Shown piece by piece: positions 2 through 18,811 of a stretch of DNA of 20,000 nucleotides. Within the stretch, counting starts at the first letter, position 1. Each line of letters begins with the position of its first letter. Position numbers and translations under genes: made by a program. A model generated the notes under the pieces. That model did no database searches and was not told the origin of the DNA. It saw nothing but the letters and a program-made list of their open reading frames with translations. The stretch comes from Asterionella formosa (lineage: Eukaryota): contig NKIB01012722.1 of NCBI GenBank assembly GCA_002256025.1, positions 52,157 to 72,156 on the forward strand, read 5' to 3'.

Positions 2-3000
2 AGCACGGCTGTGACGCCAACCACTCAGCGACCCACACCTGTATCTAACAAGCCGGGATCTCCCCTGCCTTTTGTTGCTGGTGCAGTGAATCCTTCTGGA
101 TCTCACATACACAACCACCTCGCCTTTCTACGCGAACCCCGAGACAAACAGGGCCGCGTCATGTCCTCACCGGACTACGACCCGCACACCCTTAAGGTCG
201 ATTTCAATGAACTTACACGACTCGACGGTAAGATTTCACCAGCCCAGCAACAATGGTGGGACATTAAGTCACAGTACTTTGATACGGTCCTCTTGTTCAA
301 GACCGGAAAATTTTACGAAATGTTTCATATGGACGCAGACATTGGCGTCAAAGTCTTGGGCTTCGCGTACATGAAGGGAGCCCAAGCACATGCAGGGTTC
401 CCAGAAGTGGGATATGGAAAGTTCTCTGCCATGCTAGTGCAGGCAGGATACAAGGTGGCGCGCGTAGAGCAGACAGAAACACCCGACATGCTGAAGGAGC
501 GCAAAAAGTCAAAGAAAGCGGGAACCAAGGCCCCGCAAGTAATGAACCGGGAAGTCTGTTCCATCTTAACTGCAGGAACTAGGACCTTTTGTTATATGGA
601 TGACGTGGATGGACTCATGGATGGAAGCAATTATTCCAGTTCTGTTGGGCCATTGTTGGCAATTAAAGAGATTCCCGTGGAAATTAGCTCTCCGCAGGAG
701 GATACCAACGTGCAGCCAGTGTGTGAATATGGCGTGACTATTATTGATGCAGTCCGAGCCACCGTGACCATTGGGCAGTTTGCAGATGATATCCTGCGCT
801 CTCGCATGAATACGCTGCTGGTTCGCTTTCAACCATCCGAGGCGAGTAGTCATATGCGACCTTTCCCCTCGTTTCCCCTTCATTGTCATTCTCACATTTT
901 CCTTTATTTGTTTTTACAGATTTTGGTCGAGGGTGGAGAGAATGGAGCTTCTCTCACCTTGTTATCTTTGATTCAGTCAGCACAAGTCAGTTCCACTTGC
1001 AATGCTCAGGTTGAACGCATTCAGCCTACTTCGACCTTTCCCCAGTCCAACGCAATTGACGCGGCACACCGACAAAAACTTGAACGCAAACGCTCAACAA
1101 TTCATCCCTGGGATGTGCAAGAAACAATCGAAGAGATTCACCGTCGAGGCTACTATCCACGTGCATCTCGTCAACAAGAGGGTCAATTCAGCACGTCGCG
1201 CTGGCCCAGAATCCTTCACATGTGCGTGGAAGGAGAAGCGCAGTTGGCTCTAGCAAGTTTTGGGGCTGCTTTATTTTATTTGCAGCGAAACCTTATCGAC
1301 CAAGAAATTCTGGGAATGGGTGCTGTCCAAGCCTACATTCCTCCTGTCGCTTCGGGGACCGCTCTTGGTCCAAACGGAAGCTTAGATCATATGGCTTATC
1401 AGCAAGAGCAAGGTCTGGACTTTGAACAAGTACCTCCTATGATACCTCATGCACGCGGGCAGGGTGAACCAGACTTTCAGTGTCAATTGAAATTTTCAGA
1501 AGAATGCAACACCAGCCACATGGCTCTGGATGGCACTACGCTTCAAAATCTAGAAATCTTGGCCAACGCAAAAACACATACATCAGCCGGAAGTCTTTGG
1601 TCCAAGATTAATTTCACAAAGACGCCTCACGGGAGTCGAATGTTACGAGCCTGGTTATTGCGTCCTCTCTTTCGAAAAGCGGACATCGAGAGACGCGCTG
1701 ATGCCGTTGAGGAGCTGGTATCTGGGGGAGCAGCTGTTGCCATCTCCGAAGCGCGCAATATATTGGCCAAGGTCGGAGATATTGAGCGTCTATTGTCTCG
1801 TGTTCATAGCATGGGTGGACGAGCAGAAGATTGTGAGCAAGGTCGCGCTCATCCCAATGAACGAGCTGTCTTGTACGAAGGAAAAACTCATACAAAGAGA
1901 AAGGTTGGTGACTTTTCAAAGGTGCTAAACGGGCTCAAGCAAGCATGTCGCATTCCCGAATTGTTCGAAGGAGTAGATGTTCAGAGTGGACTTCTCAAGA
2001 AAATTGTTCGCCCCGTGGATAAAACAGGATGCTTCCCTGATATGGGGAGCGAACTTGATTTCTTCTTCCTGCATTTTGATCTCAAGGCCGCAGCCGAAGG
2101 AAGCTTTGAACCAAGCCGAGGATTCGACGAGTCATACGACGATGCATGTGATGACATCGAGCGCATCGAACGCGAGTTCGACGAGTACAAGAATGAAATG
2201 TGTGACAATCATCTTAGAAATGGGCATGCCGCGAAGTCAAAATGGAAATACATAAACACCCAACCTGAATCCAAAGACAAGTATTTCATTGAGCTTCCTG
2301 CGACAATCAGTGTTCCTGATGACTTCATTGTAAAAGGAAAACGGTAAGTACAACGGCTCACCTTTTGGTGGCATGTGCATGCTTTCCTTTCTCACCGCTA
2401 TGTACTTCGTACACATTTTATGTAGTGGAAATGGGAATAACCAAGTGAACAAGTATCGTACTCGAGTCACTGAAGAAGTAAGTAATTGTAGAATGACCGC
2501 GATTCTGTCATATCTGTGACGCGACAACCTGCTCATCAAATTTCTTAGTTGGTTCAGGAGCTCGAGCATGCCCTCGATGTCCGCAAGGAAGGGAAACAAA
2601 GGGGACTGCAAATGATCTTTGCAAAGTTCGACTCCAAGCGTGACCTATGGGCTGCCGCTGCACAATGTACCGCAATTCTTGATGCACTTGGCTCATTGGC
2701 GCATGCCGCCTCCAAGCCAGGCTTTACTCGACCGACCATTTTGGAGTGCCTCCCAGACGCGAGACCCTGTATTCATATTTCCCAAGGACGCCACCCTTGC
2801 GTCGATATCACACACAGCGGCGGACAATTCATTCCTAACAACTTGACTCTCGGCTCGCTTAGCAAGGGCGACTTTCAGAATCCACGAGTTCTTCTTTTGA
2901 GTGGTCCAAATATGGTACGTTTGGTTAACAGATATCGCGGCCCTTCCTGCAGAATTATTTTCTAATTTTCACTGCCCTAAAGGGAGGAAAAAGTACACTT

Positions 3001-3747: not shown

Positions 3748-6700
3748 TTAATAATATTGTAAAGCGGCCAGCATACTATTCTTGAACTCTATCTTGGCCT
3801 CTGGTGACATGGACTCGTAAGCCTTCTTGATACCATCGACGATTCCTTGCGTACCGATTCTGGCAGTATTACCTCCAGCAGTCATCACCTGGAACACTTC
3901 TTGAACCACGCAAGACCTCGTGTACTCAACTACCTTTTGCTCAAGGCATTCGTTGTTTTGAGCCATCCAAGATAAGACAATTTTATCGTTATCCCAGAGG
4001 GCCTCAGTCGACCGTGGGTTCTCAAGGAACCACTCTTTAATTAGAGCGCTTGCTTCAATGGGAGTCAATGCTTTTACTCCTCGGCCCACATCAGCAGCAT
4101 CAATTATCTTGCGTCGTAAATCGAACTCTGCGAGCTTTCGTCGAAGTCGCCAAAAGAAGAAGGAGCGAGCGCGACTCCATTCAACTTCTCTCTCGATAAC
4201 TCCGACAGCCTTCATGCGGCCAGGAGTATCGTGGAGCTCACAGAACTGGACAGACAGTTGCTCGTACACAGGAAGAAGAGATCGCTCTCGCTTTGCAATA
4301 CGCTCATTGATCACACCACGCTCCGCCTCATCAGTTTGCTCCTGGAGCTTGGCATCCAATGCAACTAGCTGATCATCTAGTCGATGCATCGTGATGATCA
4401 AATCGCTTCTTCGGTATTTTACACTTGCTGCACCGTTGGCTTCTAGGACTCCCCCTCTTGCCGTTCCCTTGGAGGCATACATTCCCATTACACCAGCATT
4501 GATGGACGCATCCAAGACAACCCATGCTCCGCCACGAATCTCACCAAATGGAGGAATGACTACAAAGACGGGCTGTTGATAAGCAACAAAGGCATCAACA
4601 ATCAAGGCACCATACTTAAGGACCTCATCAAACATATCTCTTTGGCCTCCGCTAAACCCTCGCCAATTGGCAAACACAATCAATGGAAGATCCTCAGTTC
4701 GAAAGTCGTTGATTGCCTGTGCTGTCTTGTAGGCACTATTTGGGAACCATACACATCCGGCTTGTTGGATGACCGCCTCAGACGCCTTGACATCAGCAGG
4801 ATCAGCAGGCTTTATTGCTTCAGCAGTTCGGTTCTCAGTAATAATAACACCCATAGGAATTCCACCAAGTCGAGCCCGTCCAACGACGACAGTTTTGGCC
4901 CACCCCGACAAGCTCTCCGTAAAACTTCCTTTGTCGAAGAAACCACTTTGCCAGACTCCGCGGTCATCATCCCCTCCCGCAATGAGAAATCGAGGGTCAT
5001 AGGGCACACCTGCCACTGGCATAAAATCAATCGCTCTCTCTATTTCATCAATGCCACGGATATCTGATATTGGCAACATACCCCTCCTTGTAGAAGGCAC
5101 GTAAGACAACCAGTCGATAGCTGCCTTCACTGCTCCAAGATGATCATATGCAACTAAGTGTGAAATTCCGTTTGGATACATAATTTGTGGACCACCAAGC
5201 TGATCATTGGTTGAGTAAACATCGACTCCCATCAGCTTATTCAGCGCTTGATAGCCCGTCAAAATGATAGGCGAAGCAGTAGTCCTCTGGATTGTTCGTT
5301 GACCAAGGCGAACAAGATAGGCTCCGATACCTACAGTTCTGCCAAGAACAATAGTCAGAGTGAATATTTCTTGATACGCAGAACTCGTTTCTCCTGCAAT
5401 GAGACCTGACCCCTTCAAGTTCTCAACACCAAGGTCAGGCTCGGAACCAATGATATCAGTAAGTCTGTAAACCTCTTCTCCCTTGTATGTGACCTTTTCG
5501 GCAATAACTTCTTGCTTGTTCATGGTAAGCATTTCGTATATGTCTTTTGTCAAATAGAGAAAATCAAACCCATTCTCAGGCTTCGAGTGGTCTTTGAAAG
5601 CCACTTTGAACGACTTTTTAACTCGTTCAGCAAGCCCAATTCTGGCGCCTGAATTTGCCGCCACGTAAAGGCGGGGGATCTTGTGCTCTCTTGCATATTC
5701 CGACGCAAGCTTGAACACTACATCTTCTCTGGTTCCGAAGCTACCAGCCTTATGAGTGATATCATTCGCGATCAATACAACTTGTCGTCCCTCAGGATAC
5801 TCCCGGGTTTTGAGCACCATCAACCAAGCAACCATCCCAACATCGTTTGCACCAGCTCCACGATTGGTTTGCACCAACTCAAGTTTACCATCAAGATAGT
5901 CTTGCATGGTCCATGGTCCATCTGCACGCTTAAGCTGGACCACTAACTCGGAAGTGTACATAACCATCAAGGGGCGACCAGCCGCACGAATACCACCTTC
6001 AATGCCACCCTTTGTAGCAGTCTCGGTCCATTGCTGTTCGATTGCTGCTTCGAACAAAGCAGGCAAATCGTAACAGTATAGAGTATCTGACGAACTCAGT
6101 GCGTTCATTCGCTGGGCATCAAACGGACGAGTCAAAGGATAAGGTGTATCTACAGGTTGTCCCTCCCATGAGCTGTCACTGCTACTTGCGAGACTTGCTT
6201 TCGTTCCTCCGATCAACTTGAAGACTCTCTCGCCTCCAACAACACTAATAGCTTCGACGTACGTACTCATCACATGGACATAACCCGTCGGATTGCTCGC
6301 AACAAGGCGTAGCGCGATGGGGGGAGAATCCCGGCTCAAACAGCAAACGATTCGAGCTTCCACTTCAGCTATTCCAAGACTGGTGATTCTCTCGCCGTGA
6401 CGCTTCAGAATGTCAACAACAACTTGCTCTACCACCACTGGGTCGAGAACCAATTTGTCGTAATCACTGATCATATTGACGAACAGATGATTATCAGCTT
6501 TGCATTTCAATGCGACGACATCCATGGCATTCAGCGAGTCAACAAGAACTCGTTCAAAACTCGACGACGAGAACTCTAACACATAGCTCAAAGCTCGCAC
6601 GAAGATCCGTGGAGATCTATTGGCTTTCTTATCTTTGCTTAGTGCAGCAGGCTTTGGGGTGGCTTCATACATATGAGCAAAGCATGTAATCGTATGTCTT

Positions 6701-9700
6701 GATCCGACATTTTTAACTCGAAAGTTGGTGGCAATTCTACTGAGGTCAAGATGAAAGACATGACTAGGCTCAATGTGTCGATATAAACTCTCTTCCTTGA
6801 ACTCTGGAGAGCGGTAAGTAAAGAGCGCAGGAGGCGGGAGCTCGTTGATTCCATCTTCAAGGACCTGGTCAAGAGCAAAAGTGACCCTTCGAACGTCCGC
6901 TTGAGAGAGCAAATCATGGTACGGAGTCAAAAGTTTCTGACATCTATCGGCCATTTCGTCCATCATGTTTGCTTCAAGACGAGTACATGCGACCACGATG
7001 TAGAGAACATTGATCGGTCCTGTCCCACATGTTTCTTGAGGGAAGTTCTTCAACACAGTTTCGACTTTCGAAGCGTCGTTCAGATCCTCAATTTTGTCCA
7101 CCAGACAACACACACCTGTTCGCAATGTCATGTGGGGTATATTTTCCTTGTTCGCCGTTTGTAGGAGATTATTTTCAGAATCACTATCTGCTAGGTCGGC
7201 AAGATTACTCAACGAAGCAGAGCTACTAATAATTCGTGTCAAATCAGATGTACTCACAACGGAGGTCCCGCTGCTGAGGGCACTCTCGGAAGGCTTATTC
7301 AAAAAAGAAAACCTTAGAGACCGTGTATCAGGATGCCGTTCGAAATCTTTCAAGGTGTAGGGTCTATAGAGGTTTCGGGTGACAAGTTCCATCCAGGCAA
7401 TTTCCTCTCCAGGCGATGACGCACATTTCAAGAGTGGAAAGATGATGTCTTGCATGGGCAAATGTTCATCCAACAAGCATGCGATGTCACGGTCGGGATG
7501 AGCGTTCGAATCACTGACAAGCTTTAAGGCCGCATCCCAAAACTTAAGTTTTCTATCCTCTATGCTTGGCATGCTGGCTTGAAGAAGTAACTTGCGTGCT
7601 TTTAGAGCAACATTTGAGTAGGCTTCAGTACCCTTCATCGCCCCAATTTCGGAAAGACACGGAAGGGCAGCGGAAAGACTTTCCGCTCCGGTGAGAATAG
7701 ATACCCTTTTCCCAATTGGTGAAGCTGCACTCGTCTTCGAATCAACTCGCGAGCCGTCGCTGACCATGGAAATTACCGTCGCAACAATTGAGGCCGTGAT
7801 TTTTAGGCTGACATGGGCGCGACATATGGCCAGGATGGTTTCGTAGTCACTAGGATGGGACTTCCTGAGATTGTCAACTGCATCAGCGTATGACTTTCCA
7901 TCACAAAACCAACGCTCTACAGCGATCCACCTACGGAGCACACCCAGAAATTCAACCATCGCACGCTCGGACCCAGGTACCCCACTTGCGTGGCTCTTAG
8001 CGTAAGGTATCGTTGCTTCACGGAGAGGCGTTGTAAGAACCTCGAACGCGGTCTGCTCTGCAACACTTGGGAACGACTTGGCACAATCTGCTACAAGTTG
8101 AATGATCTTGTCTGCTGGAAATCTGACGATTTCAATCGAAGAACGAGTTAGATTTGGTCAAAATAAAAATCGCATAGCTCGGGGCAGCTCTAATTGCAAT
8201 AGATCTCACCTAAGTTGAATACCACTTCCAGCGGCACTTTCGCATTCTAATCTGAACTCCTTCAAAATTGCGGTTAGTTGGTCAAACAGACCAGCGGGAA
8301 TTCGGCCGCTGAGAACAGAAAGTTGCTCATCAACTTCATGTATAGGAAGAGTTGGGTTGGTGACAGCAAGCTCTAAATCATGCAATGCTCTGCTGAGCGA
8401 TGCATCGGAAAGGACGAAACCAGCCATTCCGCCTTGTATCTTTTGGATGGCCCCACGAAGCATGAGATGGGGTCGTTTAGGGCTTGACGAGTCAAATTCT
8501 GCACCCCATCCCAATACTTGAAGATCACCACTGAAAACGGTGGCAGGCGAAACATTTTCTGGGTTGTCAAGATCGAGCAAGGCTAGGATGTCACCAGGAG
8601 CAAGAGCAGCACCCTCGTTGACAATCCACGAGACAACTCCAGCCTCCTCGACCTTCAATGGCATGAACATTTTCATCACTTCAATTTCTCCGTAAGGTTC
8701 TCCTTTCTTCACTCTAGCTCCGTCGGCGACAAGCCTCTTGACCAATTTCCCAGCTACGTCTGTTCGAAGGGAGGTTGGATCGTAATCTGGCGAGAACGCG
8801 ACATTTGCACCGCCAACATTTATGCGCATGCCTGTTGCCACATCTCCCTTGCTTGTCAAGTATGCAACGTGACTTTTGCCTCCGATATCAATCAAATAAC
8901 CACCATCACTCAAAAGTCTGACATTAGCGACAATACATTTACTATCTGTTTCCGTTAGTGAGATCGAGAAAATGTTTTTACCGATACGAGTAGCGAACAT
9001 CTTGTACTTAACACCAGAAAGAATGAGCTCCACTTCATTGGTCATTGCCAGCAATGATGGAGGAGGGAGTTGTCCCTTTTCGAGCATAGAAAAGAAGTTT
9101 TTTTCGCCAGCAGCACATTTGTCAAACGCCATTATAGTTGCCCCAATAACAACATACGTGTGATTGTTCAGGGTGTTTATTTTCACGTTGGTGGGTCGGC
9201 TGAGGCGACTCTCGGCGGCTCCGATTCCATCAACATTTTCTTGAATCAAAGCATCCAACCAGGCCGTGTCAATGTCATTGTTCACGAAATCATTCAATTC
9301 GATAAGCTTGGAGATGTAATCAACAGTGGTACTAATGTCACCACGAATAGACAGCTCTTTGAGAGCAAGGACCATATTTCTTCTTGCCTGCTCTCTGTCG
9401 GCACCATTCGCAAAGAGATGCCCGAATTGTGAATCCGCAAATTCGTGGATAGACCCAGAGCTGTCCATACTGAAGTATCCCCAAACATTTGGTGTCGAGC
9501 GGAAATTGATCTCTTGAATACCGCCACTTGTAGGCTTAAAACCAGCTTCAGCATTCTCCGCTGTAATTCTGACCGCAATGCAGTGTCCATGTGGGGGTAC
9601 CCGTTTTGCAGTATCAAAATCAATCAGTGATTTAGGTGAATGGGGTTCTTCTTCAAACCGGTTACGCCCATATAGTTCACGTATTTCAGGAATGCAGTAG

Positions 9701-10964
9701 AGTGGGATGCCCATTGCAACCTGCAGTTGAGCAGCGGGCAAATTTACTTTGGTGATCATTTCGGTCACTGGATGTTCCACTTGCAAACGAGGGTTCAACT
9801 CCAAGAAGTAGAACTTGTGATCTACCGCAGAGTATAGGTATTCGACAGTTCCAGCGTTCGTATATCCCACAGCCTTTGCGAGGGATACAGCGGCCTGCTC
9901 CATCTGGGTCCAGACTTCAGGGTCTGCAGCAATCGGTGGCCCTTCCTCGATGATCTTTTGGTGTCGACGCTGCACGGAGCAATCACGACCATTCAGAGCA
10001 ACTGCGTTGCCGTATTCATCTGCCAGGAGCTGTACTTCAAGATGTCTTGACTTTTTCGATAGTTTCATGATGAAGATTGGACTCCCGGGCACTTCTCCAC
10101 AGACTTGACGATAAGCGGTGAGAACGTTGTCCGGACCATCCACCATTCGGATCCCCTTTCCTCCACCTCCCTCAGATGCTTTAATCATGACAGGGAACCC
10201 AACTCGGGAAGCCGCTTCGACAGCATCAGTCGCATTTGCTATGCTTGCCGCTTCATATGCCTCCGCTGGTAGCGATCCAGTTTCACGGCTGTAGACCGCC
10301 TTGACATGAGCTCCGTTCCAACTAATACATGGCACTCCTGCTGTTTGAGCAATAATCGTACTTCCGATCTTATCGCCAAGGGCTTGCATAGGGGGACCGG
10401 CCGGTCCGACAAACTTGATTGGTGGATTGCTCTGTGCCAGGGTATTGGGCAGCAACGGGTTCTCGCTAGCGTGCCCCCAACCGGCCCAAACGGCATGGAC
10501 ACCGTGCAGTCGCGCAAGTTCGACAATCAACGTGACATTGGCATAGTTATGATTATTTGATCCTCCAGGTACGTCCACAATGACGTCTCCCATTCGGATG
10601 TATTCCGCATTGGCTCTGTTGTTATTATTGTTGGTTAGTTCCATGAAACCCAATTTCAGTCGCATTCTATCCGCCAAAATACTTACCGAAGATCTTCAGG
10701 GGTAGCCATGACTACGAAAGATATAGCGCGTTCATCGCCAAATACTTCATACGCCCACCGACGGATCGACCGAATGCATTTCACCGCTGCAACGCCATTA
10801 TTTGCAATCAAGATTTTCTCGATGACAAAGCCTTGGTCGCCCCCAAGCTCGGAAACGTACGCCGTAACGTCAGCGAATCTACGATGAAACGTAGAGGAGA
10901 CACTGTGCGACATGCGATGCACCTTGTCGCCTTCTTCTGGCAGTCTAGCGTCGACCTCCGCCAT
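3748..10964 (-). CDS. ACC: Homomeric (multidomain) acetyl-CoA carboxylase, probably cytosolic isoform; exons 10964-10687, 10615-8210, 8122-3748 (~2352 aa)
   Basis: Biotin carboxylase domain ([26 protein letters not shown] across intron 1, [43 protein letters not shown]), biotin carrier EIEVMKM, central domain, and carboxyltransferase ([49 protein letters not shown]). GT-AG introns 10686-10616 and 8209-8123 are both phase 2 and keep the frame. The N-terminus [14 protein letters not shown] is acidic with no signal peptide. Confidence 0.96.
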
Positions 10965-12199
10965 GTTCACTGCTAGAAGGGACAAACGGAGAGAAATTGA
11001 GCGATTATGAAACACGATGACAAACTAGAAAACGAGAAACACGTACATACGAAGAGGCACGCACGAGGTACGTAGCAGAGTTCCCGCCGACCCACATCAG
11101 GGTTTCTTTGGATTGTGCTCCTTAATTAATCTTATGTTGTCCTGGGAATTATCAACCTGGACAGAAGAAGAGAGCCCACGCACTTACCAGGATTGCTATC
11201 TCTCTAAACGAATAAATGATGCAGCTTCTATTGAAGTCTCGTTTTCTTTGCACCTCCTGTCCCTGTCTCGTCAGAAACGAGGCAAAGCTGTGCGTTACTC
11301 AACAGGAGTTACCAGTTGATTATTACCTTGCCCAGCAATAGTGAGCCCATATTAGTAATTAATACCGGTTTTTCATAATATTCATAAATGAATGATGCTC
11401 ATATCACTTCATAAATATATGACACACAACATTGTATGTACCCGGTAGCTGACGGTGGAGTTTACCAAGTTAATGTTCAAACACTTTTACGATATTATCT
11501 ACCTGGTATCCAACAATACATATTTATTCATATCCTAAGATATATATATGCATGATGTTTGAAAGGGGAACGTGGGGTTCAAAATTTAGGATGTCAAAGA
11601 CCGCATCATGCAAACAATGACGTAAGCAAGTGCGAACAATGAATTTTGAAACTGTCAATTAAAACTGATTGTTTTCATCAAATTTGGACGGAAAAAGAGA
11701 ACGATTTTGAGTTTGGAGAATATAAAGCAAAGGAGCAGCGCTACACCTGGAAAGCAAAATTTGCTTACTCTAGTACTCTTCTTCCTCTTGCTCACTGGTC
11801 GTTGGGATATGCTTTTTAAGCCATTTGCCCACAATTTGGTATTTCTGCGTTTGGACAAATAAATTACGACTAACCCCTACATAACGACGGTAAGTCACGG
11901 TACAGACGATTTTCAAACAATGAATTACCGGTACTGGTAACAACATTCTCTACGTATGATGAACGTACGGATCTGTCCATTGCCACGTTACCTTAATTTG
12001 CAGGTTGTCTGTCTACCTGGTACATACCAGGGTAGGGAGGGTGCAACAATACAGAACAACCAACCTTGACCTAGACTAGTCTACAAAGGTGTGCGCATTA
12101 GATTAATTGATTTAAATTCTCACCATGTACCAGTATGTACAATAGACTGATACTGGTACTCAGCTGACAAGCCATGAAGGCAAAAATTAAAATTTTGAC

Positions 12200-13566
12200 T
12201 TAAACTTCTTCATGCTCAGCAGTAGCTCCTTCCTCCTCCTCATCCTTGGGTTTATTAACATCTGGTCCATCAAGTGCCTTGTCGAGAATTTCCTCAGTGG
12301 TAGCTGCAACAGCTTCTTGTACAGTGGTAGCATCTGCTGTGTTCTCAACCAACATATTCAGACTGCCCTTGGGGGTAGCATCGACACCGCTGTCTTCTGG
12401 TATCTTGATGATACTAACATCATCCTTGGGAGCAACTTCACTGAGATCTTCAGGATTCATCTTCTTCTTGGATCGGCGCCCATCGACACGATCAGGACGG
12501 GCAATATCACGCATTACCTGGCAGGCCTTGTGAATGGCCTTTTCGTCAGATAGCTCTTCCCATTGTCCTTCAATGGTGCGAGAACTATCCCAGTTTTCAT
12601 CAGTCATCTTGAGAGCACATGCGATCTTTTTGAGGAACCGACCAGGGGGATCGAGACTACGGATCATGCCCACAATTTCGGTGGCAAGAGCGCGCTTCTC
12701 AGAATAGTTTCCAGAATCAAACTGGGGCTTGCGCTCCACAGCCAATGTGCGGAAACGAGCGTTTCCAGAATGGCCATTTACAAAGGCTCCACGACCCGAT
12801 AGTACATCGTGCTCGTGTACACCGTCGGGGTTCTCATTAATCGGAGGAAGCTGTTCGAGATGTTGGAGAAGCTGTACAGATGAACCGATGAAACGATTGG
12901 TTACAATCATGTTTTCCAATTGTGCTAAATCCTGCACCCCATGCGAGAGTTGCTTACCTGACTAACCCCCGGGGTAGACTCGGTCGTCCGCTGACGTTTG
13001 CGAGTCCCATTTTGAGCTTGCATCTCACGCAGTTGCACACGATCAGGGCGCTGAAAGTCACGCATGACTTGGCAAGCTTTCAAGATGGCCTGTTCCGTGG
13101 AGAGAGCAAACCATGGTCCCTTGTCGGACTTGCGTTTCAAGAACCGCCCATGAACGATAGTCATCGCAGCGACGATTTCTGTCGCAACGCGGCGCTTAGC
13201 AGCATGGTTGCCAGCTTCGAATTCAGGCTTGCGCTGAAAGCAGAGAGCACGAAACTTTTGGTTTCCCTTGTGTCCATTCACGGACGCACCGCGACCATTG
13301 AGCACATCGTTCTCGCCTGGCTCTGAAATAGCACCAGGGTCATGTTCGATGTCCTCGTCCTTCAGCTCATTTGGAGGATCTTCAGCAAGTTGCTGATCCC
13401 CTAAGTCTTCCGCCTGCTCCTTGTCTTCGGAATCAGCAGGTTCCTGGGAGAAGGCAAGCAGTGCCGGAGATAATTCCTTTGCACCTTCGGAAAGACCAGC
13501 AGGTTCTTCAGTGGCCGTTAGATCAGTCTGAATCTCAACGGTTACGGTATCCTCAGCATCTGACAT
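12200..13566 (-). CDS. Protein with two tandem DUF6824-like domains (diatom-expanded family, unknown function); exons 13566-12958 and 12871-12200 (~426 aa)
   Basis: Two copies of DVL(N/S)GRGA.VNGH.GN..FR.L...RKP.F..GN...KR..A.EIV....GRFLK....W..LS.E.AI.KACQVMRD..RPDR. A CAG|GTAAGC donor at 12957 and a GTACAG|CTT acceptor at 12872 are both phase 0 and join the two ORF-track ORFs. Acidic N- and C-terminal tails; basic RKRQR and RRSKKK patches follow each domain. Family name is from recalled motif, not a search. Confidence 0.8.
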
Positions 13567-13731
13567 CTTGGGTCAGCGTCTGTGGTATGGCCTGCTTGGT
13601 TCTTGATTGAGGTACCGGTATGTTTTGGAGGGACTTGCAGATCAAATAAGACGAGTGGATCGATTCCAAGGACGAGAGGAGCAGTCAAATGGATCGATGC
13701 ATTGGGTCGGTCGGATCGACAAACTGACCTC

Positions 13732-13825
13732 CTACTGAAGGTAGGACACGACCGAGGGTGGAGACTGCCTGCGAGTATTCTTGTGTTCCAGGCTTGAGAG
13801 GCGCGAGTAGGTTGCCCGAACGAGT
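13732..13825. repeat. Dispersed ~95-bp element, copy A
   Basis: CTACTGAAGGTAGGACACGACCGAGGGTGGAGACTGCCTGC...ATTCTTGTGTTC...GAGGCGCGAGT...CCGAACGAGT aligns in the same orientation with 19777-19874 (40 of the first 41 nt identical). Confidence 0.9.
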
Positions 13826-14759
13826 GGCGCCCCCGGCGCTACGAGAAGGTCAACCTACGAGGGCCTCCAAAGTCGAGTACACAAGATTACGAGTAGGCAG
13901 ACTCCTCCCGAGTAGGGTCTTAACTAGGCAATTTACAAACTAGCTGTCGCCTTGCCATTCGGGTACTTCTAAGTAATTTTTAGGTCTAAGTAATTTTATT
14001 TAGGGGGAATATGGGGCACATCAAATTTTTCGGCATTAAAATTGCCGAATTTTAGCATGACAACCAGAATGACGGTAAAATGCATAGAGATGGTACAACA
14101 ACCGTAAAACACAAGGGAATGATTGTAACAACATGCAACATCAATGAAAATTGAACATGATTTTTGGAGTATGAAATGCGATATAATAAGTAGCATCAAA
14201 TGAGAAATAGAAAAAATTGTTTTGGGTTAGAAATGAAGTAAAAAATAGGAGTTTCAATGGAGACGTATGCATTGTGACATTGTACATCTAAGCCGCATAT
14301 TACATGAAGTGACCTTCATGTAAATAAGCCTCCATCTAAGCAGCGAAATACACCACTTTTCGAAATTTCGTCTACGTACGAGAGTTAATTGTGTGGTACT
14401 TCACATGCAAAAAATAATGCCACTCTTCACTTAAAAAAGATTACTTTCAACGGTTTCATGTGAAGTTTTCACAAGAATGAATTTTGAACGCAAGAATGAA
14501 TTATTCATTCATGACACGCATTTTACTTAGTGAAATAGTAAGGATATTTGTTGTGACTAATGTCATGCATCTGAGATCAAAGTTTTACGGTTGTACACAT
14601 CACATAAAGAACTCACGCTTTTCCGGTAAAAAAGCTCACTCTTCCCACCAGCTTTCATGTAATGTAGGTTAGTACTACTGGTAATAGGTAACTGTACTAC
14701 TAGCTACTACTAGTAGTAGTAGGCAACCCAATATTTTTACGTGATTATTATTTCTCAAA

Positions 14760-15125
14760 ATCAACACTGGTAGAATCATGTTTGCTGATGAGGATAGTAT
14801 GATTGTTTGCCAAATATGTGCCGAAGCAAGGTCCATTCAAGTTACCAATCCAGAAGCCTGTAGATACAACAAATCATTGTCCACTGGCTGGTCAAAGCAG
14901 CTTGTCCAAAGAGGTGAAGTATGTTGCCAGTTGATTGTTGTTTTCAAGAGGTATAATATACAGACAATAGCTACCATTGTTCTTTTCCTGGTGTTTCCAA
15001 ATGCTAGCAAGCCACTTTTATCGAAACTCGCACAAAGATTGCGAAGTCTTCAGGTCGCAAACAATGTGGGCAACATATCTCGCCAGCACCAACAACATAT
15101 CACTCTATTGCTCCCTATCCAATAA
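14760..15125 (-). pseudogene. Possible decayed coding remnant, perhaps transposon-derived
   Basis: One minus-strand frame reads as protein-like text with scattered stops: LLDREQ*SDMLLVLARYVAHIVCDLKTSQSLCEFR*KWLASIWKHQEK..YCLYIIPLENNNQL..L*PASGQ*FVV. It lies head-to-head with the Harbinger-like remnant. No family can be assigned. Confidence 0.3.
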
Positions 15126-15369
15126 TTGCACTCAGGCCGAAATAAATAGACACAATTAGTACCAGTCTTATTCATCTGTACAGTACCACAACAGGACCTG
15201 TCTTTTCCAGAAGAAGGATGTGCAAACCACTAAGCAAGCCATTCCCCTATTTACATCCTGCCATACATCACTCATCTGATAATAATGAGGATCAAAGGAC
15301 ATACAAGGCAACAATACCAATTCAATTTGAAAGCCAAACAGTTCATGGAAGGTCCAACAACTGTCAACC

Positions 15370-15607
15370 ATGGTTTTAGTTCATGTGTCTGCGAGAGTTT
15401 ATGATGTTTGGGCTTGAAATTGCAGGCTTCAAGAAGAGATTGGAGAGCTATAAGGAAAGCGCGAATTTGGAGCGGTTTTGGATTTGGTACGGACCCAGTC
15501 CCAGGATTTGTTCGAAGATTTGGAGTGACCTACAGAAAACGAATATGCTATGTCGCGTTGCTTGTGATGCTTATCCTTTGCATCTTCTTCTGGCGACATT
15601 AGCCTGA
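15370..15607 (+). mobile_element. Truncated, frameshifted N-terminus of a PIF/Harbinger-type (DDE_Tnp_4) transposase
   Basis: ATG at 15370 gives MVLVHVSAR, then after a frameshift EFMMFGLEIAGFKKR...NLERFWIWYGPSPRICSKIWSDLQKT...PLHLLLA. This resembles my recollection of diatom DDE-endonuclease N-termini (GLELVGF..NL.RF...YG..P......IW.DLQ.T). No catalytic DDE domain follows; flanks are AT-rich. Confidence 0.5.
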
Positions 15608-16136
15608 TGTAAGCAGAACACCAATTATTGACGAGCGAATGTAAATAATTCCTATATTAATCTATATCAAACCATCATCAAAACAAATGAAAGTAAGATT
15701 ATTGACACAAAAACTGAAATAATATTTGAGTTAAAAGGCAAACGCATTATTATTTAAGGTTAAAAAAATGAAATCAATTAATAATAAATGGGTAGATGTT
15801 GCAACAGACAAATAAGATTGTGGCAGGAAAAAGCTTTAGAGTGAACAATACTAGGGTAATCGAAAACAGAATTTGAATATAAAATTGTCTTCAGATAAGT
15901 AGTAAAAAATATGTATTGATAATCATACAAAACGACCATAATCATCAACTTTAAAAACTTCATATCTCTTGAATTATGAAGCTTCATTGCTAATTAAACA
16001 GACCTATTGAAAGCGGAGAGCCTGTTCTACATTTAGCTACGTACTTGATTTGTTGTCACCATGAAATTTGACTAAAATAGTTTCTTTTTAGTCGAAACAT
16101 GGGGTTAACTTTATATGACTCTCAGTTTTTAGGTAG

Positions 16137-16310: not shown

Positions 16311-16555
16311 TACAAGCCATACGAAACTAACGACGGATGCCTGGCGGCCAACCATTGAATGAAGGATTATGATACTGGTTCTGTACATACAACTCTCATT
16401 GTATCTATGTACATTTCCGTAATGGAAAGAGACAATGATGTTTGCAAGCAGCAAAGCATCAGTCAACATATGACACACTATGTTGCATCCTCCGCAGCCT
16501 CTACAATAACACACAAAATGCCTTTGTGGGAGTGCTAGACCTACTAGCCTTGAGA

Positions 16556-17883
16556 ATGGTACACTCCAGCTATTTTGCAGCATATCAGGGTCTTGCTACT
16601 TCCGCCATTGTTTGTCGGCAGGTCAACAATATTGGTATTGTTGGTGGAGGCCTGGCTGGTCTTTCCACTGCATTTCATATGCTACAAAAGACAAATGGAG
16701 CATGTCATATTACCATTTATGATAAGGGGCCAGTGGGAACTGGAGGAGCGTCATCTGTCGCGGGTGGGTACGTGCTACGTGGAATATAGTTTGCTTTGTC
16801 CATGAGGAATTCAATATATTTGCTACTCTTGATTGAGCCTGGCTCATGACGACATATATATATCACCAAGATCTCTGAGACAAACCAGCATGATTTTTCT
16901 TACTCGTTGTGTTGCCAGCTTCCCGTTGACTCACCGACTCTACTACACTTATTGCAATTCGCAGACTACTGCATCCACTATCCCCTCGAGGAAAAATAGT
17001 TCATTGGGGATTGGAAGGACTCATTGCCACCAATTCTTTGTTGGACCACGCCGTCCATAAAAAGCCCGGTAGTATTTTACGAAACGAGCTGTATCGCGTT
17101 GCTACAACGGAAAAGAATGTCGCTGATCTGAAACGCAGCGCAAAGGAAATGCCAGAATTTTGTGAATGGATGGACGACATGGAGGGATGCCAAAGCGACA
17201 CTGTGATGGGTGGACTGAGGCTGCACAATGGCTGCAAGGTATTACACGTACCGACCTATCTCGAAGGATTGTGGTTGGCATGTTGTGATTTGGGAACCGT
17301 CGAGTGGAAGATTGGCACCATGACAAGATACGACAATCACGACGTTGTTGTTTTAGCTGCTGGTGCTGGTCTTTGGAATGATCAATTGCTCTCGCAGGAG
17401 AGTGATGGACCATATCCAATGGATTTGGTTCGTGGTCAGTCGATTGACTTGATTGTCAAGGACATGCCCTTGCATGCCATTTTGGCTGGCAAGTATATGA
17501 CGCCCCTTCCTGACCCATATTTGTGTCACGTCGGTGCAACGCAAGAACAAATTACCGATCTTGAAATGACCCCCAGGGACTTGTATGATACCTTGCTTTA
17601 TCAAACTTCCTTCTTGTCGTTGTGGTCATCGAATCCTGCCATTCATCGAATTTCCTCTGGAATCCGGGTCCAATCCAGACGTAGCCATCTAGGACGCTTG
17701 CCCATGATTGGACAAATTGGTACCACAAACACATATCTTTTCTCGGGACTTTCCTCTCGTGGATTGTTGTACCATGGGATATATGGCGACCTATTGACAG
17801 ATGCCATTTTGGGTCGACGAGATGTGACAGAGGAACATCCTCACTTGAATTGGTGGAGAAGTAAAGCCGAACCAAAACTGTAG
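16556..17883 (+). CDS. FAD-dependent oxidoreductase, DAO/glycine-oxidase-like family; exons 16556-16767, 16965-17883 (~376 aa)
   Basis: Rossmann IGIVGGGLAGLSTA..ITIYDK; GASSVAG|GLLHPLSPRGK restored across a GTACGT...GCAG phase-2 intron (16768-16964); VVVLAAGAG, LVRGQ, VGATQE, GIRV, LPMIG, FSGLSSRGLLY. Start codon is uncertain (nearest in-frame ATG before the Rossmann motif used). Confidence 0.85.
16795..16884 (+). ncRNA. U24: Intronic box C/D snoRNA U24 (SNORD24 family)
   Basis: Terminal stem TTTGTC (16795-16800) / GACAAA (16879-16884); box C ATGAGGA 16802-16808; guide ATATTTGCTACT 16816-16827; D' TTGA 16829-16832; internal stem TGAGC/GCTCA; C' ATGACGA 16846-16852; guide TATCACCAAGATCT 16861-16874; box D CTGA 16875-16878. 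Both guides are antisense to the conserved LSU rRNA segment GCAGAUCUUGGUGGUAGUAGCAAAUAU, the established U24 target. Confidence 0.93.
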
Positions 17884-18229
17884 CTGCATTCATTTCGATA
17901 TATTATTAATATATAACACAGAAAATGCATCTGAAATACGTAGACAAGACTACTGGTAGTCTGCATATACATCATGCGGTCAGGTACGCATTAACTATTT
18001 TATGATTCCGGTCCACTATATGGCTTTCAATAAACCAAAAATGCTAATACTAGTCATGCTGCAAAGTCGAAGCCTGTGGAGGGAGCCGAAAGGATGGTGT
18101 TTTCAATATGTTCCCATGCATTGAATTACCATTTTGGTAGGTAGGCTGATACTCCCAGGTTCTGGAGCATCGATACCTGGTATTCTCGGAGTTGTAATTA
18201 TATTAACTTTAAGTTCTGAAACCAAGCAA

Positions 18230-18311
18230 GTTGCGGTAATTTTGCTGAAACTAAAAGTTTAGCTACCTTTATCCCATGTTAAATTTTTAGTTTAAGCAAA
18301 ATTACCGCAAC
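18230..18311. repeat. Inverted repeat with 32-bp arms and 18-nt spacer (MITE-like or collapsed DNA transposon ends)
   Basis: Left arm GTTGCGGTAATTTTGCTGAAACTAAAAGTTTA (18230-18261) versus reverse complement of 18280-18311 GTTGCGGTAATTTTGCTTAAACTAAAAATTTA: 30/32 identical. No clear target-site duplication. Confidence 0.85.
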
Positions 18312-18811
18312 GTGCAGGTCCCCGAGTACCCTTGTAGGCTGCAGTCCTTCTCGAATCCCCCAGAGTTTTGTAACTTGTACCAACATGTCAAACTTCCCTA
18401 GATCGTTTCAGTACTTCCAATTTTTGAGCTTCATGTATTCTTGCGTCATGTTGTTTTGGCTCACTGTGGTTTCTTCCTTGAATGTAGGACTCCACATCGG
18501 TTGCCCAGCCAGAGTTGTAAGTTCTGGGTAGCAAAGCTCGAGACTATGGGAATCTATAGTCTCTAGCTTGAATTTCCAGGTTGCCTGTACGCCCTGCTAG
18601 TAGGAGGTGAGCGAGCACACCCAGTCACACGAGGGTGTGGTAAACCTAGCAGAACTGCAAATGATCACTCTCAGCCCGTTCGTCCTATTGTGTTTACATT
18701 CCAAATGGTCGTCATAGCTGTAAGTAAACGGGTGGGCCCGGGCAAAGCAAAAAATTAAAAAAAAATTAAGAGAATGCCTGCTTCAAGGAAGAAACCGTGA
18801 TAATTGAAACC

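What the first reader, a model, noticed from the sequence alone, without database searches (positions are those of the whole stretch)
16795..16884. U24 box C/D snoRNA hidden in the intron of a metabolic FAD oxidoreductase gene
Seen: this 197-nt intron is more than twice as long as the other introns here (68-87 nt). It holds a full C-D'-C'-D layout, a perfect 6-bp terminal stem and two rRNA-antisense guides, with box D ~86 nt before the acceptor. Established: U24 is a double-guide snoRNA hosted in introns of translation-related genes (yeast ASC1, vertebrate RPL7A). The +5 rule here predicts 2'-O-methylation at the positions equivalent to yeast 25S C1437 (D guide) and A1449 (D' guide). Inference: an ancient snoRNA in an atypical host gene, with variant boxes C (AUGAGGA) and D' (UUGA). 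It hints that the host is co-expressed with ribosome biogenesis; DAO-fold proteins include RNA-modifying enzymes such as the MnmC oxidase domain.
Basis: partly seen in the sequence, partly recalled or inferred. Interest (0 to 1): 0.8.

Follow-up and report, generated by a model that had tools for sequence, protein, structure and literature searches.

The report
Diatom U24 snoRNA in oxidoreductase intron
The long intron of a diatom FAD-oxidoreductase gene really does carry the ancient U24 small nucleolar RNA that guides two ribose methylations of large-subunit ribosomal RNA; this is an ordinary, well-known RNA in a host gene that appears to be shared by many diatoms.

Summary
Confirmed. Rfam's SNORD24/U24 model matches window 16797-16882 (+) end to end at 54.1 bits (cut-off 41, E 3.4e-7); it is the only Rfam hit above threshold in the window. 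All described parts are present: box C AUGAGGA, D' UUGA, C' AUGACGA, D CUGA and a perfect 6-bp terminal stem.

The RNA lies in sense inside a 197-nt GT..AG intron (16768-16964) of a DAO-family FAD oxidoreductase gene. RNA contigs of 4 of 4 runs (2 studies) show this splice.

The two guides pair over 14 and 12 bp with the highly conserved stretch CAGAUCUUGGUGGUAGUAGCAAAUA of eukaryotic LSU rRNA. The fifth-nucleotide rule selects a C and an A 12 nt apart, as published for yeast and Arabidopsis U24.

New here: public ORF calls on orthologous genes translate their introns. Of 25 that reach far enough, 14 show U24-derived peptides such as MTT..ITKISE 25-33 residues before the same exon junction. 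These rows sit beside Fragilaria, Cylindrotheca and Nitzschia, so this host gene is shared across diatoms.

SNORD24 is already listed in two diatom genome papers. The mature RNA, the methylations and the organism's own rRNA were not seen. Ordinary: a new member of a known family.

The parts
16556..16767 (+). Host gene exon 1 (coding part, from the first in-frame ATG). It holds the Rossmann-type FAD-binding motif GIVGGGLAGL and ends ...SSVAGG.
   Evidence: ORF and translation. Pfam NAD_binding_8 27.1 bits against a cut-off of 21.9, and DAO 26.7 bits against 27.9. RNA contigs cover it and end at the joint. The choice of start codon is an inference.
16768..16964 (+). Spliceosomal intron, 197 nt, GTACGT...CAG, phase 2.
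   Evidence: It is the only frame-keeping GT-AG candidate with a good donor. A joint that skips 197 nt, GT..AG, is seen in RNA contigs of 4 of 4 runs from 2 studies. The spliced product is P0001.
16795..16884 (+). U24 (SNORD24) box C/D snoRNA, about 90 nt including the terminal stem.
   Evidence: Rfam RF00069 match at 16797-16882: 54.1 bits, cut-off 41, E 3.4e-7, model positions 1-76 of 76.
16795..16800 (+). 5' half of the terminal stem (UUUGUC).
   Evidence: Perfect 6-bp complement of 16879-16884. It is present in the minimum-free-energy fold.
16802..16808 (+). Box C, variant AUGAGGA (G instead of U at position 5).
   Evidence: Aligned to the box C of the Rfam consensus.
16816..16827 (+). D' guide, AUAUUUGCUACU. 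U16824 is the fifth nucleotide upstream of D'.
   Evidence: 12 contiguous Watson-Crick pairs with AGUAGCAAAUAU of LSU rRNA. This is the longest run in 5 of 5 LSU fragments examined. Duplex energy -14.7 kcal/mol; 4 of 500 shuffles did as well.
16829..16832 (+). Box D', variant UUGA.
   Evidence: Sequence. This is the only register in which the fifth-nucleotide rule falls inside the duplex (inference).
16834..16846 (+). 5-bp hairpin between D' and C'. It appears as an insertion relative to the Rfam consensus.
   Evidence: Fold. The Rfam alignment shows an 8-nt insertion here.
16846..16852 (+). Box C', variant AUGACGA.
   Evidence: Sequence. The orthologues' intron translations begin MTT (AUG ACN ACN) or hold AHDD at the same place.
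16861..16874 (+). D guide, UAUCACCAAGAUCU. G16870 is the fifth nucleotide upstream of box D.
   Evidence: 14 contiguous pairs (13 Watson-Crick and one G-U) with AGAUCUUGGUGGUA of LSU rRNA in 4 of 5 fragments, and 11 pairs in the fifth. Duplex energy -20.9 kcal/mol; 0 of 500 shuffles did as well.
16875..16878 (+). Box D, CUGA, 86 nt before the end of the intron.
   Evidence: Sequence and Rfam alignment.
16879..16884 (+). 3' half of the terminal stem (GACAAA).
   Evidence: Perfect complement of 16795-16800.
16965..17883 (+). Host gene exon 2 (305 codons plus stop), the DAO-family FAD oxidoreductase body.
   Evidence: Pfam DAO PF01266 46.4 bits against a cut-off of 27.9. There are 291 homologues, and the named ones are all diatoms. 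PDB 22zt_A, 'Predicted D-Amino Acid Dehydrogenase', matches at E 3.3e-27.

Best explanation
This is the diatom's U24 (SNORD24) box C/D small nucleolar RNA, carried in sense in the single intron of a DAO-family FAD oxidoreductase gene.

Shown:
- the family match;
- the box and stem anatomy;
- that the intron is spliced out of the host mRNA;
- that both guides are complementary to the conserved LSU rRNA stretch;
- that orthologous genes of many diatoms have an intron at the same codon, and many of those introns carry U24-derived sequence at a similar distance from the acceptor.

Inferred from what is established for intronic box C/D snoRNAs:
- After splicing and debranching, exonucleases trim the intron down to the RNA. 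The RNA is protected by the kink-turn proteins (Snu13, Nop58, Nop56) and fibrillarin, bound at the C/D and C'/D' motifs and the terminal stem.
- The particle pairs with pre-rRNA. It methylates the 2'-O of the C opposite G16870 (equivalent to yeast 25S C1437 and human 28S C2338).
- It also methylates the A opposite U16824, 12 nt downstream (equivalent to yeast A1449). The neighbouring G may be methylated too, as in yeast.
For: - Rfam SNORD24: 54.1 bits against a cut-off of 41, E 3.4e-7, full model length. It is the only hit above gathering score in 20 kb and the top hit of 6 at E up to 1.
- The layout is unique in the window; 1 of 200 shuffles gave any such layout.
- The RNA is in sense inside an intron whose removal is seen in RNA contigs of 4 of 4 runs from 2 studies.
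- The guide pattern found over 33 contaminant contigs in prokaryote assemblies. All 10 of 10 scanned are eukaryotic LSU rRNA on the opposite strand.
- The Rfam LSU consensus reads CAGAUCUUGGUGGUAGUAGCAAAUA, nearly all in capitals, at model positions 1445-1469. The targets are positions 1450 and 1462.
- The longest complementary runs, 14 and 12 bp, fall at that site in 5 of 5 LSU fragments.
- Published U24 target pairs are also 12 nt apart: Arabidopsis Cm1439/Am1451 and yeast Cm1435/Am1447 (table passage); yeast Cm1437, Am1449, Gm1450 (passage).
- Conservation: 253 homologues were examined. 25 ORFs carry at least 27 residues of translated intron. Of these, 10 hold TKI[SA][ED] or PRSL[RS], which are the D guide plus box D read in two frames. 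Four more hold close variants preceded by MTT or AHDD, which is box C'. The motifs lie 23-33 residues before the exon-2 junction.
- None of these peptides occurs in 81,514 residues of protein body.
- In the first set, 46 of 46 exon-2-only ORFs have R or S (AGN, that is the AG acceptor) just before the junction.
- Positive rows lie beside Fragilaria crotonensis, beside Cylindrotheca fusiformis and in the Nitzschia clade.
- The box D to acceptor distance is 75-99 nt in the orthologues and 86 nt here. This agrees with the conserved position of intronic C/D snoRNAs upstream of the acceptor (review passage).
Against: - No read-level evidence exists for a mature RNA of about 90 nt. All runs were held as contigs, which cannot show ends or levels.
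- Intron sequence does occur in RNA-run contigs, but that may be pre-mRNA or DNA.
- The organism's own LSU rRNA was not available (no genome held), so complementarity was tested only against a consensus and other eukaryotes.
- Boxes C, C' and D' each differ from consensus by one base.
- The fold is no more stable than shuffles (z -0.05). That is usual for C/D snoRNAs, so it gives no support either way.
- The orthologue evidence is at peptide level, and back-translation is degenerate.
- 11 of 25 long intron translations show no footprint. None was seen in the 31-row group with Seminavis, Fistulifera and Mayamaea.
- The relaxed peptide pattern has one chance match in an exon-1 sequence (P0028).
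- Other U24 copies may exist elsewhere in the genome and be the main source of the RNA.
Confidence: 0.88

Rival explanations
1. It is a decaying or inactive U24 copy. The variant boxes C (AUGAGGA), D' (UUGA) and C' (AUGACGA) prevent snoRNP assembly, and another locus supplies the functional U24.
For: Three of the four boxes depart from consensus by one base. The T. rotula genome paper lists 4 SNORD24 hits, so diatoms can hold several copies (passage). No mature RNA was seen.
Against: - Both guides, box D and the 6-bp stem are intact.
- The C' variant (AUG ACN = MT) and the D guide with box D recur in 14 orthologous introns from lineages with only 37-47% protein identity. This indicates purifying selection.
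- No variant letters were listed inside 16795-16884 in the 4 runs, while 2 lie in the 3' intron flank of one run. This is a weak point.
- The N. inconspicua paper reports SNORD24 as paired allelic copies (passage).
Confidence: 0.05
2. The conserved intronic element acts mainly in cis on its host, for example by tuning splicing or intron retention of the oxidoreductase mRNA, rather than as an rRNA guide.
For: - Intron-containing contigs stand in RNA runs at 16-40% of the word depth of the exon contigs. The tool warns that this is a poor measure.
- A 2023 Genome Biology paper reports intronic snoRNAs that influence host splicing (search listing and abstract only).
- The host association is conserved across diatoms.
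Against: - What is conserved is exactly the rRNA-antisense guide plus box D, which a splicing regulator would not need.
- The Rfam family match covers the whole RNA.
- No complementarity to the flanking intron was looked for, so there is no positive evidence.
Confidence: 0.03
3. It is a chance resemblance to a box C/D snoRNA in an AT-rich intron.
For: None beyond the short, degenerate nature of box motifs.
Against: E 3.4e-7. 1 of 200 shuffles gave any such layout. Duplex energies were reached by 0 and 4 of 500 shuffles. The same features recur in orthologous introns.
Confidence: 0.01

Closest known systems
Yeast snR24/U24, in the intron of ASC1
   Same: It is an intronic double-guide box C/D snoRNA. 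The D guide targets the C of the AGAUC motif (25S Cm1437) and the D' guide targets the A 12 nt downstream (Am1449, plus Gm1450), sites in the peptide exit tunnel (passage of bioRxiv 10.1101/2024.08.07.607065). It belongs to the same Rfam family, RF00069 (table passage).
   Different: The host there is a ribosome-associated protein gene, while here it is a DAO-family oxidoreductase. Boxes C, C' and D' are variant here. Whether the G next to the A is also methylated here is unknown.
Human SNORD24 (U24), second intron of RPL7A
   Same: Same family, and the same D-guide target (28S Cm2338) (passage of PMC3412847; table passage).
   Different: The human D' guide is assigned to C2352, and the equivalent A (Am2350) is assigned to U76. 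The diatom RNA follows the yeast and plant A-type register. The host is a ribosomal protein gene.
Arabidopsis AtU24 and sponge SNORD24 (third intron of RPL5)
   Same: AtU24 guides Cm1439 and Am1451, 12 nt apart as predicted here. The sponge orthologue is intronic.
   Different: The hosts and genomic organisation differ. One search lists the AtU24 location as unknown. This illustrates the host turnover described by Hoeppner and Poole 2012 (abstract).
SNORD24 hits reported in diatom genome papers (Nitzschia inconspicua, PMC8329260; Thalassiosira rotula, PMC11842555)
   Same: The same Rfam family was found by Infernal in diatoms: paired allelic copies in N. inconspicua (passage) and 4 hits in T. 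rotula (passage).
   Different: The passages I read give counts only. They name no host gene, intron, guide or target. I did not read the whole texts or the supplements.

Membership tests
SNORD24 / U24 (Rfam RF00069) | Covariance-model score at or above the family's gathering score, over the full model. | tested here: met
   54.1 bits against 41, model positions 1-76 of 76, E 3.4e-7.
SNORD24 / U24 (Rfam RF00069) | Box C (RUGAUGA) near the 5' end and box D (CUGA) near the 3' end, brought together by a terminal stem. | tested here: met
   AUGAGGA at 16802-16808 (one departure, at position 5), CUGA at 16875-16878, and a perfect 6-bp stem 16795-16800 / 16879-16884.
SNORD24 / U24 (Rfam RF00069) | The D guide is antisense to the LSU stretch AGAUCUUGGUG, with the C opposite the fifth nucleotide upstream of box D. 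| tested here: met
   14 bp against the Rfam LSU consensus and 4 of 5 LSU fragments, 11 bp in the fifth. G16870 is the fifth nucleotide. The organism's own rRNA was not available.
SNORD24 / U24 (Rfam RF00069) | The D' guide is antisense to the adjacent LSU stretch AGUAGCAAAUAU. | tested here: met
   12 bp in 5 of 5 LSU fragments. With D' at 16829-16832, the fifth nucleotide U16824 faces the A 12 nt after the C, as for AtU24 and yeast U24.
SNORD24 / U24 (Rfam RF00069) | A stable RNA of about 75-90 nt in a fibrillarin snoRNP, and 2'-O-methylation at the two sites that depends on it. | not testable with these tools
   Only contigs of RNA runs were available, and they cannot show the ends or level of an RNA.
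Intron-encoded box C/D snoRNA (splicing-dependent processing) | Sense orientation in a spliced intron, at a conserved distance upstream of the 3' splice site. | tested here: met
   The joint 16767/16965 is seen in 4 of 4 RNA runs. Box D lies 86 nt before the acceptor here and 75-99 nt before it in the orthologues, by peptide count.
DAO family FAD-dependent oxidoreductase (Pfam PF01266), host gene | Pfam score above the gathering cut-off. | tested here: met
   Exon 2 scores 46.4 bits against 27.9. Exon 1 alone scores 26.7 against 27.9.
MnmC C-terminal oxidoreductase domain (TIGR03197), host gene | NCBIfam equivalog score above the cut-off. | tested here: not met
   53.1 bits against a cut-off of 174.2. 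ThiO (TIGR02352) scores 47.3 against 250.8. The host's substrate is unknown.

The most novel reading that the evidence does not exclude
The U24 snoRNA and this oxidoreductase gene have stayed together since early in diatom evolution because the pairing is functional, not accidental. Either the enzyme (best but far sub-threshold family match: the MnmC tRNA-modifying oxidase domain) itself acts in RNA or ribosome metabolism, or its expression is tied to ribosome production through the snoRNA-bearing intron.
Probability: 0.07. Interest if true: 0.6.

Novelty: new member of a known kind. Interest (0 to 1): 0.3.

Why it matters
[quoted passage not shown] A default Rfam scan finds it, and two diatom genome papers already list SNORD24.

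The modest added value has three parts.
- It identifies the host gene.
- It shows that this snoRNA-intron pairing appears stable across many diatom lineages. That is a lineage-wide counter-example to the usual host turnover, and a handy marker intron.
- It exposes an annotation artefact. Public protein predictions for this gene family begin inside the snoRNA (MTT...ITKISE...) or read straight through the intron.

Tried and rejected
- **Whole-genome look-up.** No genome is held. The record of L001 is not held either. The organism's own LSU rRNA and further U24 copies therefore could not be sought.
- **Metagenome scan with exon 2.** It returned one locus, L001. This is a spliced transcript without the intron and without any Rfam hit at E up to 1.
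- **U24 pattern in viral contigs.** 0 hits.
- **The listing of cluster members.** Their organisms remain unnamed.
- **Thermodynamic fold.** z -0.05, 89 of 200 shuffles as stable. This is uninformative for a C/D snoRNA.
- **RNA-run contigs over the intron.** Intron-containing contigs exist in all 4 runs at lower word depth than the exon contigs. Contigs cannot show a mature RNA, and DNA may be present, so I do not count this as expression of the snoRNA.
- **Variant letters.** The 2 variant letters in the 3' intron flank of X8, against none in the snoRNA, are too few to mean anything.
- **Sigma-70 promoter and terminator scan.** This is irrelevant for a eukaryote, and nothing exceeded the shuffles.
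- **Notes of this scan.** None exist for this genome. By words, only notes on other genomes came up.
- **MnmC-like host.** The match is far below the family cut-off and level with ThiO, so it is not taken up.
- **Box C of P0014.** Its translated intron (VRR...) is compatible with UGAGGA, but codon degeneracy forbids a claim.
- **P0074, P0125 and P0136.** These hold ambiguous U24-like peptides. P0125 is counted only under the relaxed pattern, and the other two are not counted.

Full report
**Observation**

- A perfect 6-bp terminal stem: UUUGUC 16795-16800 pairs with GACAAA 16879-16884.
- Box C AUGAGGA (16802-16808).
- A 12-nt antisense element (16816-16827), followed after one base by UUGA (16829-16832).
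- A 5-bp hairpin (16834-16846).
- Box C' AUGACGA (16846-16852).
- A 14-nt antisense element (16861-16874).
- Box D CUGA (16875-16878).

A scan of the whole window against the 4227 Rfam families gave a single match above gathering score. It is SNORD24 (RF00069) at 16797-16882 (+): 54.1 bits against a cut-off of 41, E 3.4e-7, covering model positions 1-76 of 76. At E up to 1 it remains by far the best of 6 matches.

A script searched for box C (U or G at position 5), box D 50-110 nt later and a perfect 6-bp flanking stem. It found this one place on both strands of the window, and 1 of 200 block-shuffled windows gave any.

**Host gene and intron**

Two ORFs flank the RNA, 16439-16789 and 16930-17883. 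They carry the N-terminal Rossmann motif and the body of a DAO-family FAD oxidoreductase: Pfam PF01266, exon 2 at 46.4 bits against 27.9.

The only frame-keeping GT-AG intron with a good donor is 16768-16964. It is 197 nt, GTACGT...CAG, phase 2 in a Gly codon.

A 386-residue public protein identical over exon 2 reads ...SSVAGGLLHPLSPRGK... across the junction (P0001). RNA-run contigs of 4 of 4 runs, from 2 studies, carry a joint that skips exactly these 197 nt.

The snoRNA is in sense. It starts 27 nt after the donor, and its box D ends 86 nt before the acceptor.

The other introns I could infer in the window are 82, 71 and 68 nt (MutS homologue) and 87 and 71 nt (acetyl-CoA carboxylase). They rest on GT-AG ends and reading frame only, not on RNA.

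**Targets**

No genome is held for this window, so the organism's own rRNA could not be read. I therefore searched the prokaryote genome collection for the two guide cores on one strand, two bases apart.
- At least 33 contigs matched.
- All 10 of 10 that I scanned are contaminating eukaryotic LSU rRNA, always on the strand opposite to the guide pattern.
- The 33 matches carry 24 different flanks, so they come from varied eukaryotes. They were selected by the pattern, however.

The Rfam consensus is independent of that selection. It reads gUgCAGAUCUUGGUGGUAGUAGCAAAUAuUC at model positions 1442-1472, almost all in the capitals that mark strong conservation.

In 5 of 5 LSU fragments examined, the longest complementary run of the D' guide is the 12 bp at AGUAGCAAAUAU. 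The longest run of the D guide is the 14 bp at AGAUCUUGGUGGUA (11 bp in one fragment). Duplex energies were reached by 4 of 500 and 0 of 500 shuffled guides.

Counting five nucleotides upstream of box D gives G16870, which faces the C of AGAUC (model position 1450). Five upstream of D' gives U16824, which faces the second A of AGUAGC (model position 1462), 12 nt further on.

The same 12-nt spacing separates the published U24 pairs.
- Arabidopsis Cm1439/Am1451 and yeast Cm1435/Am1447 in the older numbering (table passage of Hoeppner and Poole 2012, PMC3511168).
- Yeast Cm1437/Am1449, with Gm1450 as a third U24 site (passage of bioRxiv 10.1101/2024.08.07.607065).

That the numbered residues are these letters of the motif is my inference from the spacing and the family. 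The diatom RNA thus has the yeast and plant register. In human, U24 is assigned C2338 and C2352 (passage of PMC3412847).

**Conservation of the arrangement**

DNA of orthologous loci could not be fetched, but the protein collections gave an indirect view. The named homologues of exon 2 are all diatoms: Fragilaria crotonensis, Cylindrotheca, Seminavis, Nitzschia, Fistulifera, Mayamaea.

Many unnamed homologues are ORFs called on genomic contigs. They start inside the intron and run into exon 2.
- In the first set of 120 proteins, 47 are spliced forms. In 46 of 46 exon-2-only ORFs with at least one upstream residue, the residue before the LLHP junction is R or S. That is an AGN codon, as expected if an AG acceptor sits at the very same position.
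- Over both sets (253 proteins), 25 ORFs carry at least 27 residues of translated intron.
- Of these, 10 contain TKI[SA][ED] or PRSL[RS]. This is what ...ACCAAGAUC(U/G)CUGA..., the U24 D guide plus box D, gives in its two open frames.
- Four more contain close variants (SPRSLK, SPRSLM, SPRSMR, TKITE). In these the motif is preceded at the right spacing by MTT or AHDD, which is how box C' (AUGACNAC) reads.
- The motifs lie 23-33 residues before the junction. This puts box D 75-99 nt before the acceptor, against 86 nt here.
- Neither pattern occurs in 81,514 residues of protein body. The relaxed pattern has one chance match in an exon-1 sequence (P0028).
- P0014 also shows KYLL (compatible with the D' guide) and LSLAHDD. 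The latter is identical to the window's own translation of D', hairpin and C'.
- P0135 reads through a whole intron of 61 codons.

On a FastTree of the exon-2 parts, with the intron-derived residues cut off, the footprint-bearing rows are spread out.
- One is sister to Fragilaria crotonensis (support 96).
- One is sister to Cylindrotheca fusiformis (support 99).
- Several lie in the Nitzschia/Bacillariaceae clade.
- One lies with an MMETSP transcript.
- Others lie in two unnamed clades.

Against this, 11 of 25 long extensions show nothing. None was seen in the 31-row group with Seminavis, Fistulifera and Mayamaea, where few ORFs reach far enough. I read this as a U24-bearing intron inherited by many diatom lineages. 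Its true extent is open.

**Mechanism**

I take this to be the ordinary intronic box C/D route, inferred from established knowledge and summarised in the review PMC8162545 (passages).
1. The core proteins bind the kink-turns formed by C/D and C'/D'.
2. The intron is spliced out and debranched.
3. Exonucleases trim it to the protected RNA.
4. Fibrillarin methylates the rRNA nucleotide opposite the fifth guide position.

[quoted passage not shown] If the branch point is one of the CTSAC-like motifs at 16926-16938 (my guess), the RNA ends 45-55 nt before it.

The G at position 5 of box C would replace the U-U pair of the kink-turn by G-U. This is an inference from the general model of the motif, recalled and not from a call.

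**Comparison with what is known, and novelty**

[quoted passage not shown] Its hosts differ between lineages.
- ASC1 in yeast.
- RPL7A intron 2 in human and RPL5 intron 3 in sponges.
- An intron in Plasmodium (table passage).

Hoeppner and Poole conclude that intronic locations are not stable across eukaryotes and that broad expression is the main requirement (abstract).

Earlier notes of this scan on other algae likewise report snoRNAs in introns of non-translation genes. I did not check them.

SNORD24 hits are already printed for two diatom genomes: N. inconspicua, as paired allelic copies (passage), and T. rotula, with 4 hits (passage). The passages name no host.

My searches for 'SNORD24' with 'diatom' (3 papers) and for 'snoRNA', 'diatom', 'Phaeodactylum' (35 papers, 20 listed) turned up no description of the host intron. 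I read only passages, not supplements.

The finding is therefore a new member of a known family. The small new point is that diatoms share this host.

The host's best NCBIfam match is indeed the MnmC oxidase domain. However, it scores 53 bits against a cut-off of 174, next to ThiO at 47 against 251. The nearest solved structure is a 'Predicted D-Amino Acid Dehydrogenase' at E 3.3e-27. The substrate is unknown, and nothing ties the enzyme to ribosome biogenesis beyond the snoRNA itself.

**What remains open**
- The mature RNA.
- The two methylations.
- The organism's own rRNA.
- The number of U24 copies in the genome.
- The DNA of the orthologous introns.

Noticed in passing
Proteins P0010, P0013, P0027, P0059, P0093, P0110, P0125, P0214 (start MTT...), P0135 and P0153: Public gene calls for this family start at the AUG of the snoRNA's box C' and translate the U24 D guide (ITKISE / SPRSLR). 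In P0135 the call reads through the whole 61-codon intron. These N-termini or inserts are annotation artefacts, not protein.
   Followed up: yes
window 18226-18315: An inverted repeat with 36-nt arms, 92% complementary, 18 nt apart, lies in the spacer between the 3' ends of the oxidoreductase and proteasome genes. It gives sub-threshold plant-miRNA-like Rfam hits on both strands, for example 34 bits against a cut-off of 100. It could be a small hairpin element or a MITE.
   Followed up: partly
window 2344-2548: The MutS homologue (Pfam MutS_I, III and V) seems to have a 52-nt micro-exon (2426-2477) between introns of 82 and 71 nt. This is inferred from GT-AG ends and frame only.
   Followed up: partly
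window 3748-11024 (-): A large multidomain acetyl-CoA carboxylase gene (biotin carboxylase, BCCP, central and carboxyltransferase domains) is interrupted by two short candidate introns of 87 and 71 nt.
   Followed up: partly
window 12200-13838 (-): Two adjacent ORFs each carry a DUF6824 domain (E 3e-19 and 3e-21). They may be tandem paralogues or exons of one gene.
   Followed up: no
window 14001-16000: A G+C trough (0.36 against 0.43-0.52 elsewhere) lies in the ORF-poor stretch upstream of the oxidoreductase gene.
   Followed up: no
window 16711, 16895, 16905; P0001 against the window: Strain or allele variation. RNA-run contigs differ at one exon-1 site and two sites in the 3' intron flank, and none is listed inside the snoRNA. 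P0001 differs from the window's translation at three residues.
   Followed up: partly
L002-L034: At least 33 contigs filed under bacterial isolates or MAGs in the prokaryote genome collection carry the guide-target pattern. All 10 of 10 scanned are eukaryotic LSU rRNA, so they are contamination.
   Followed up: partly
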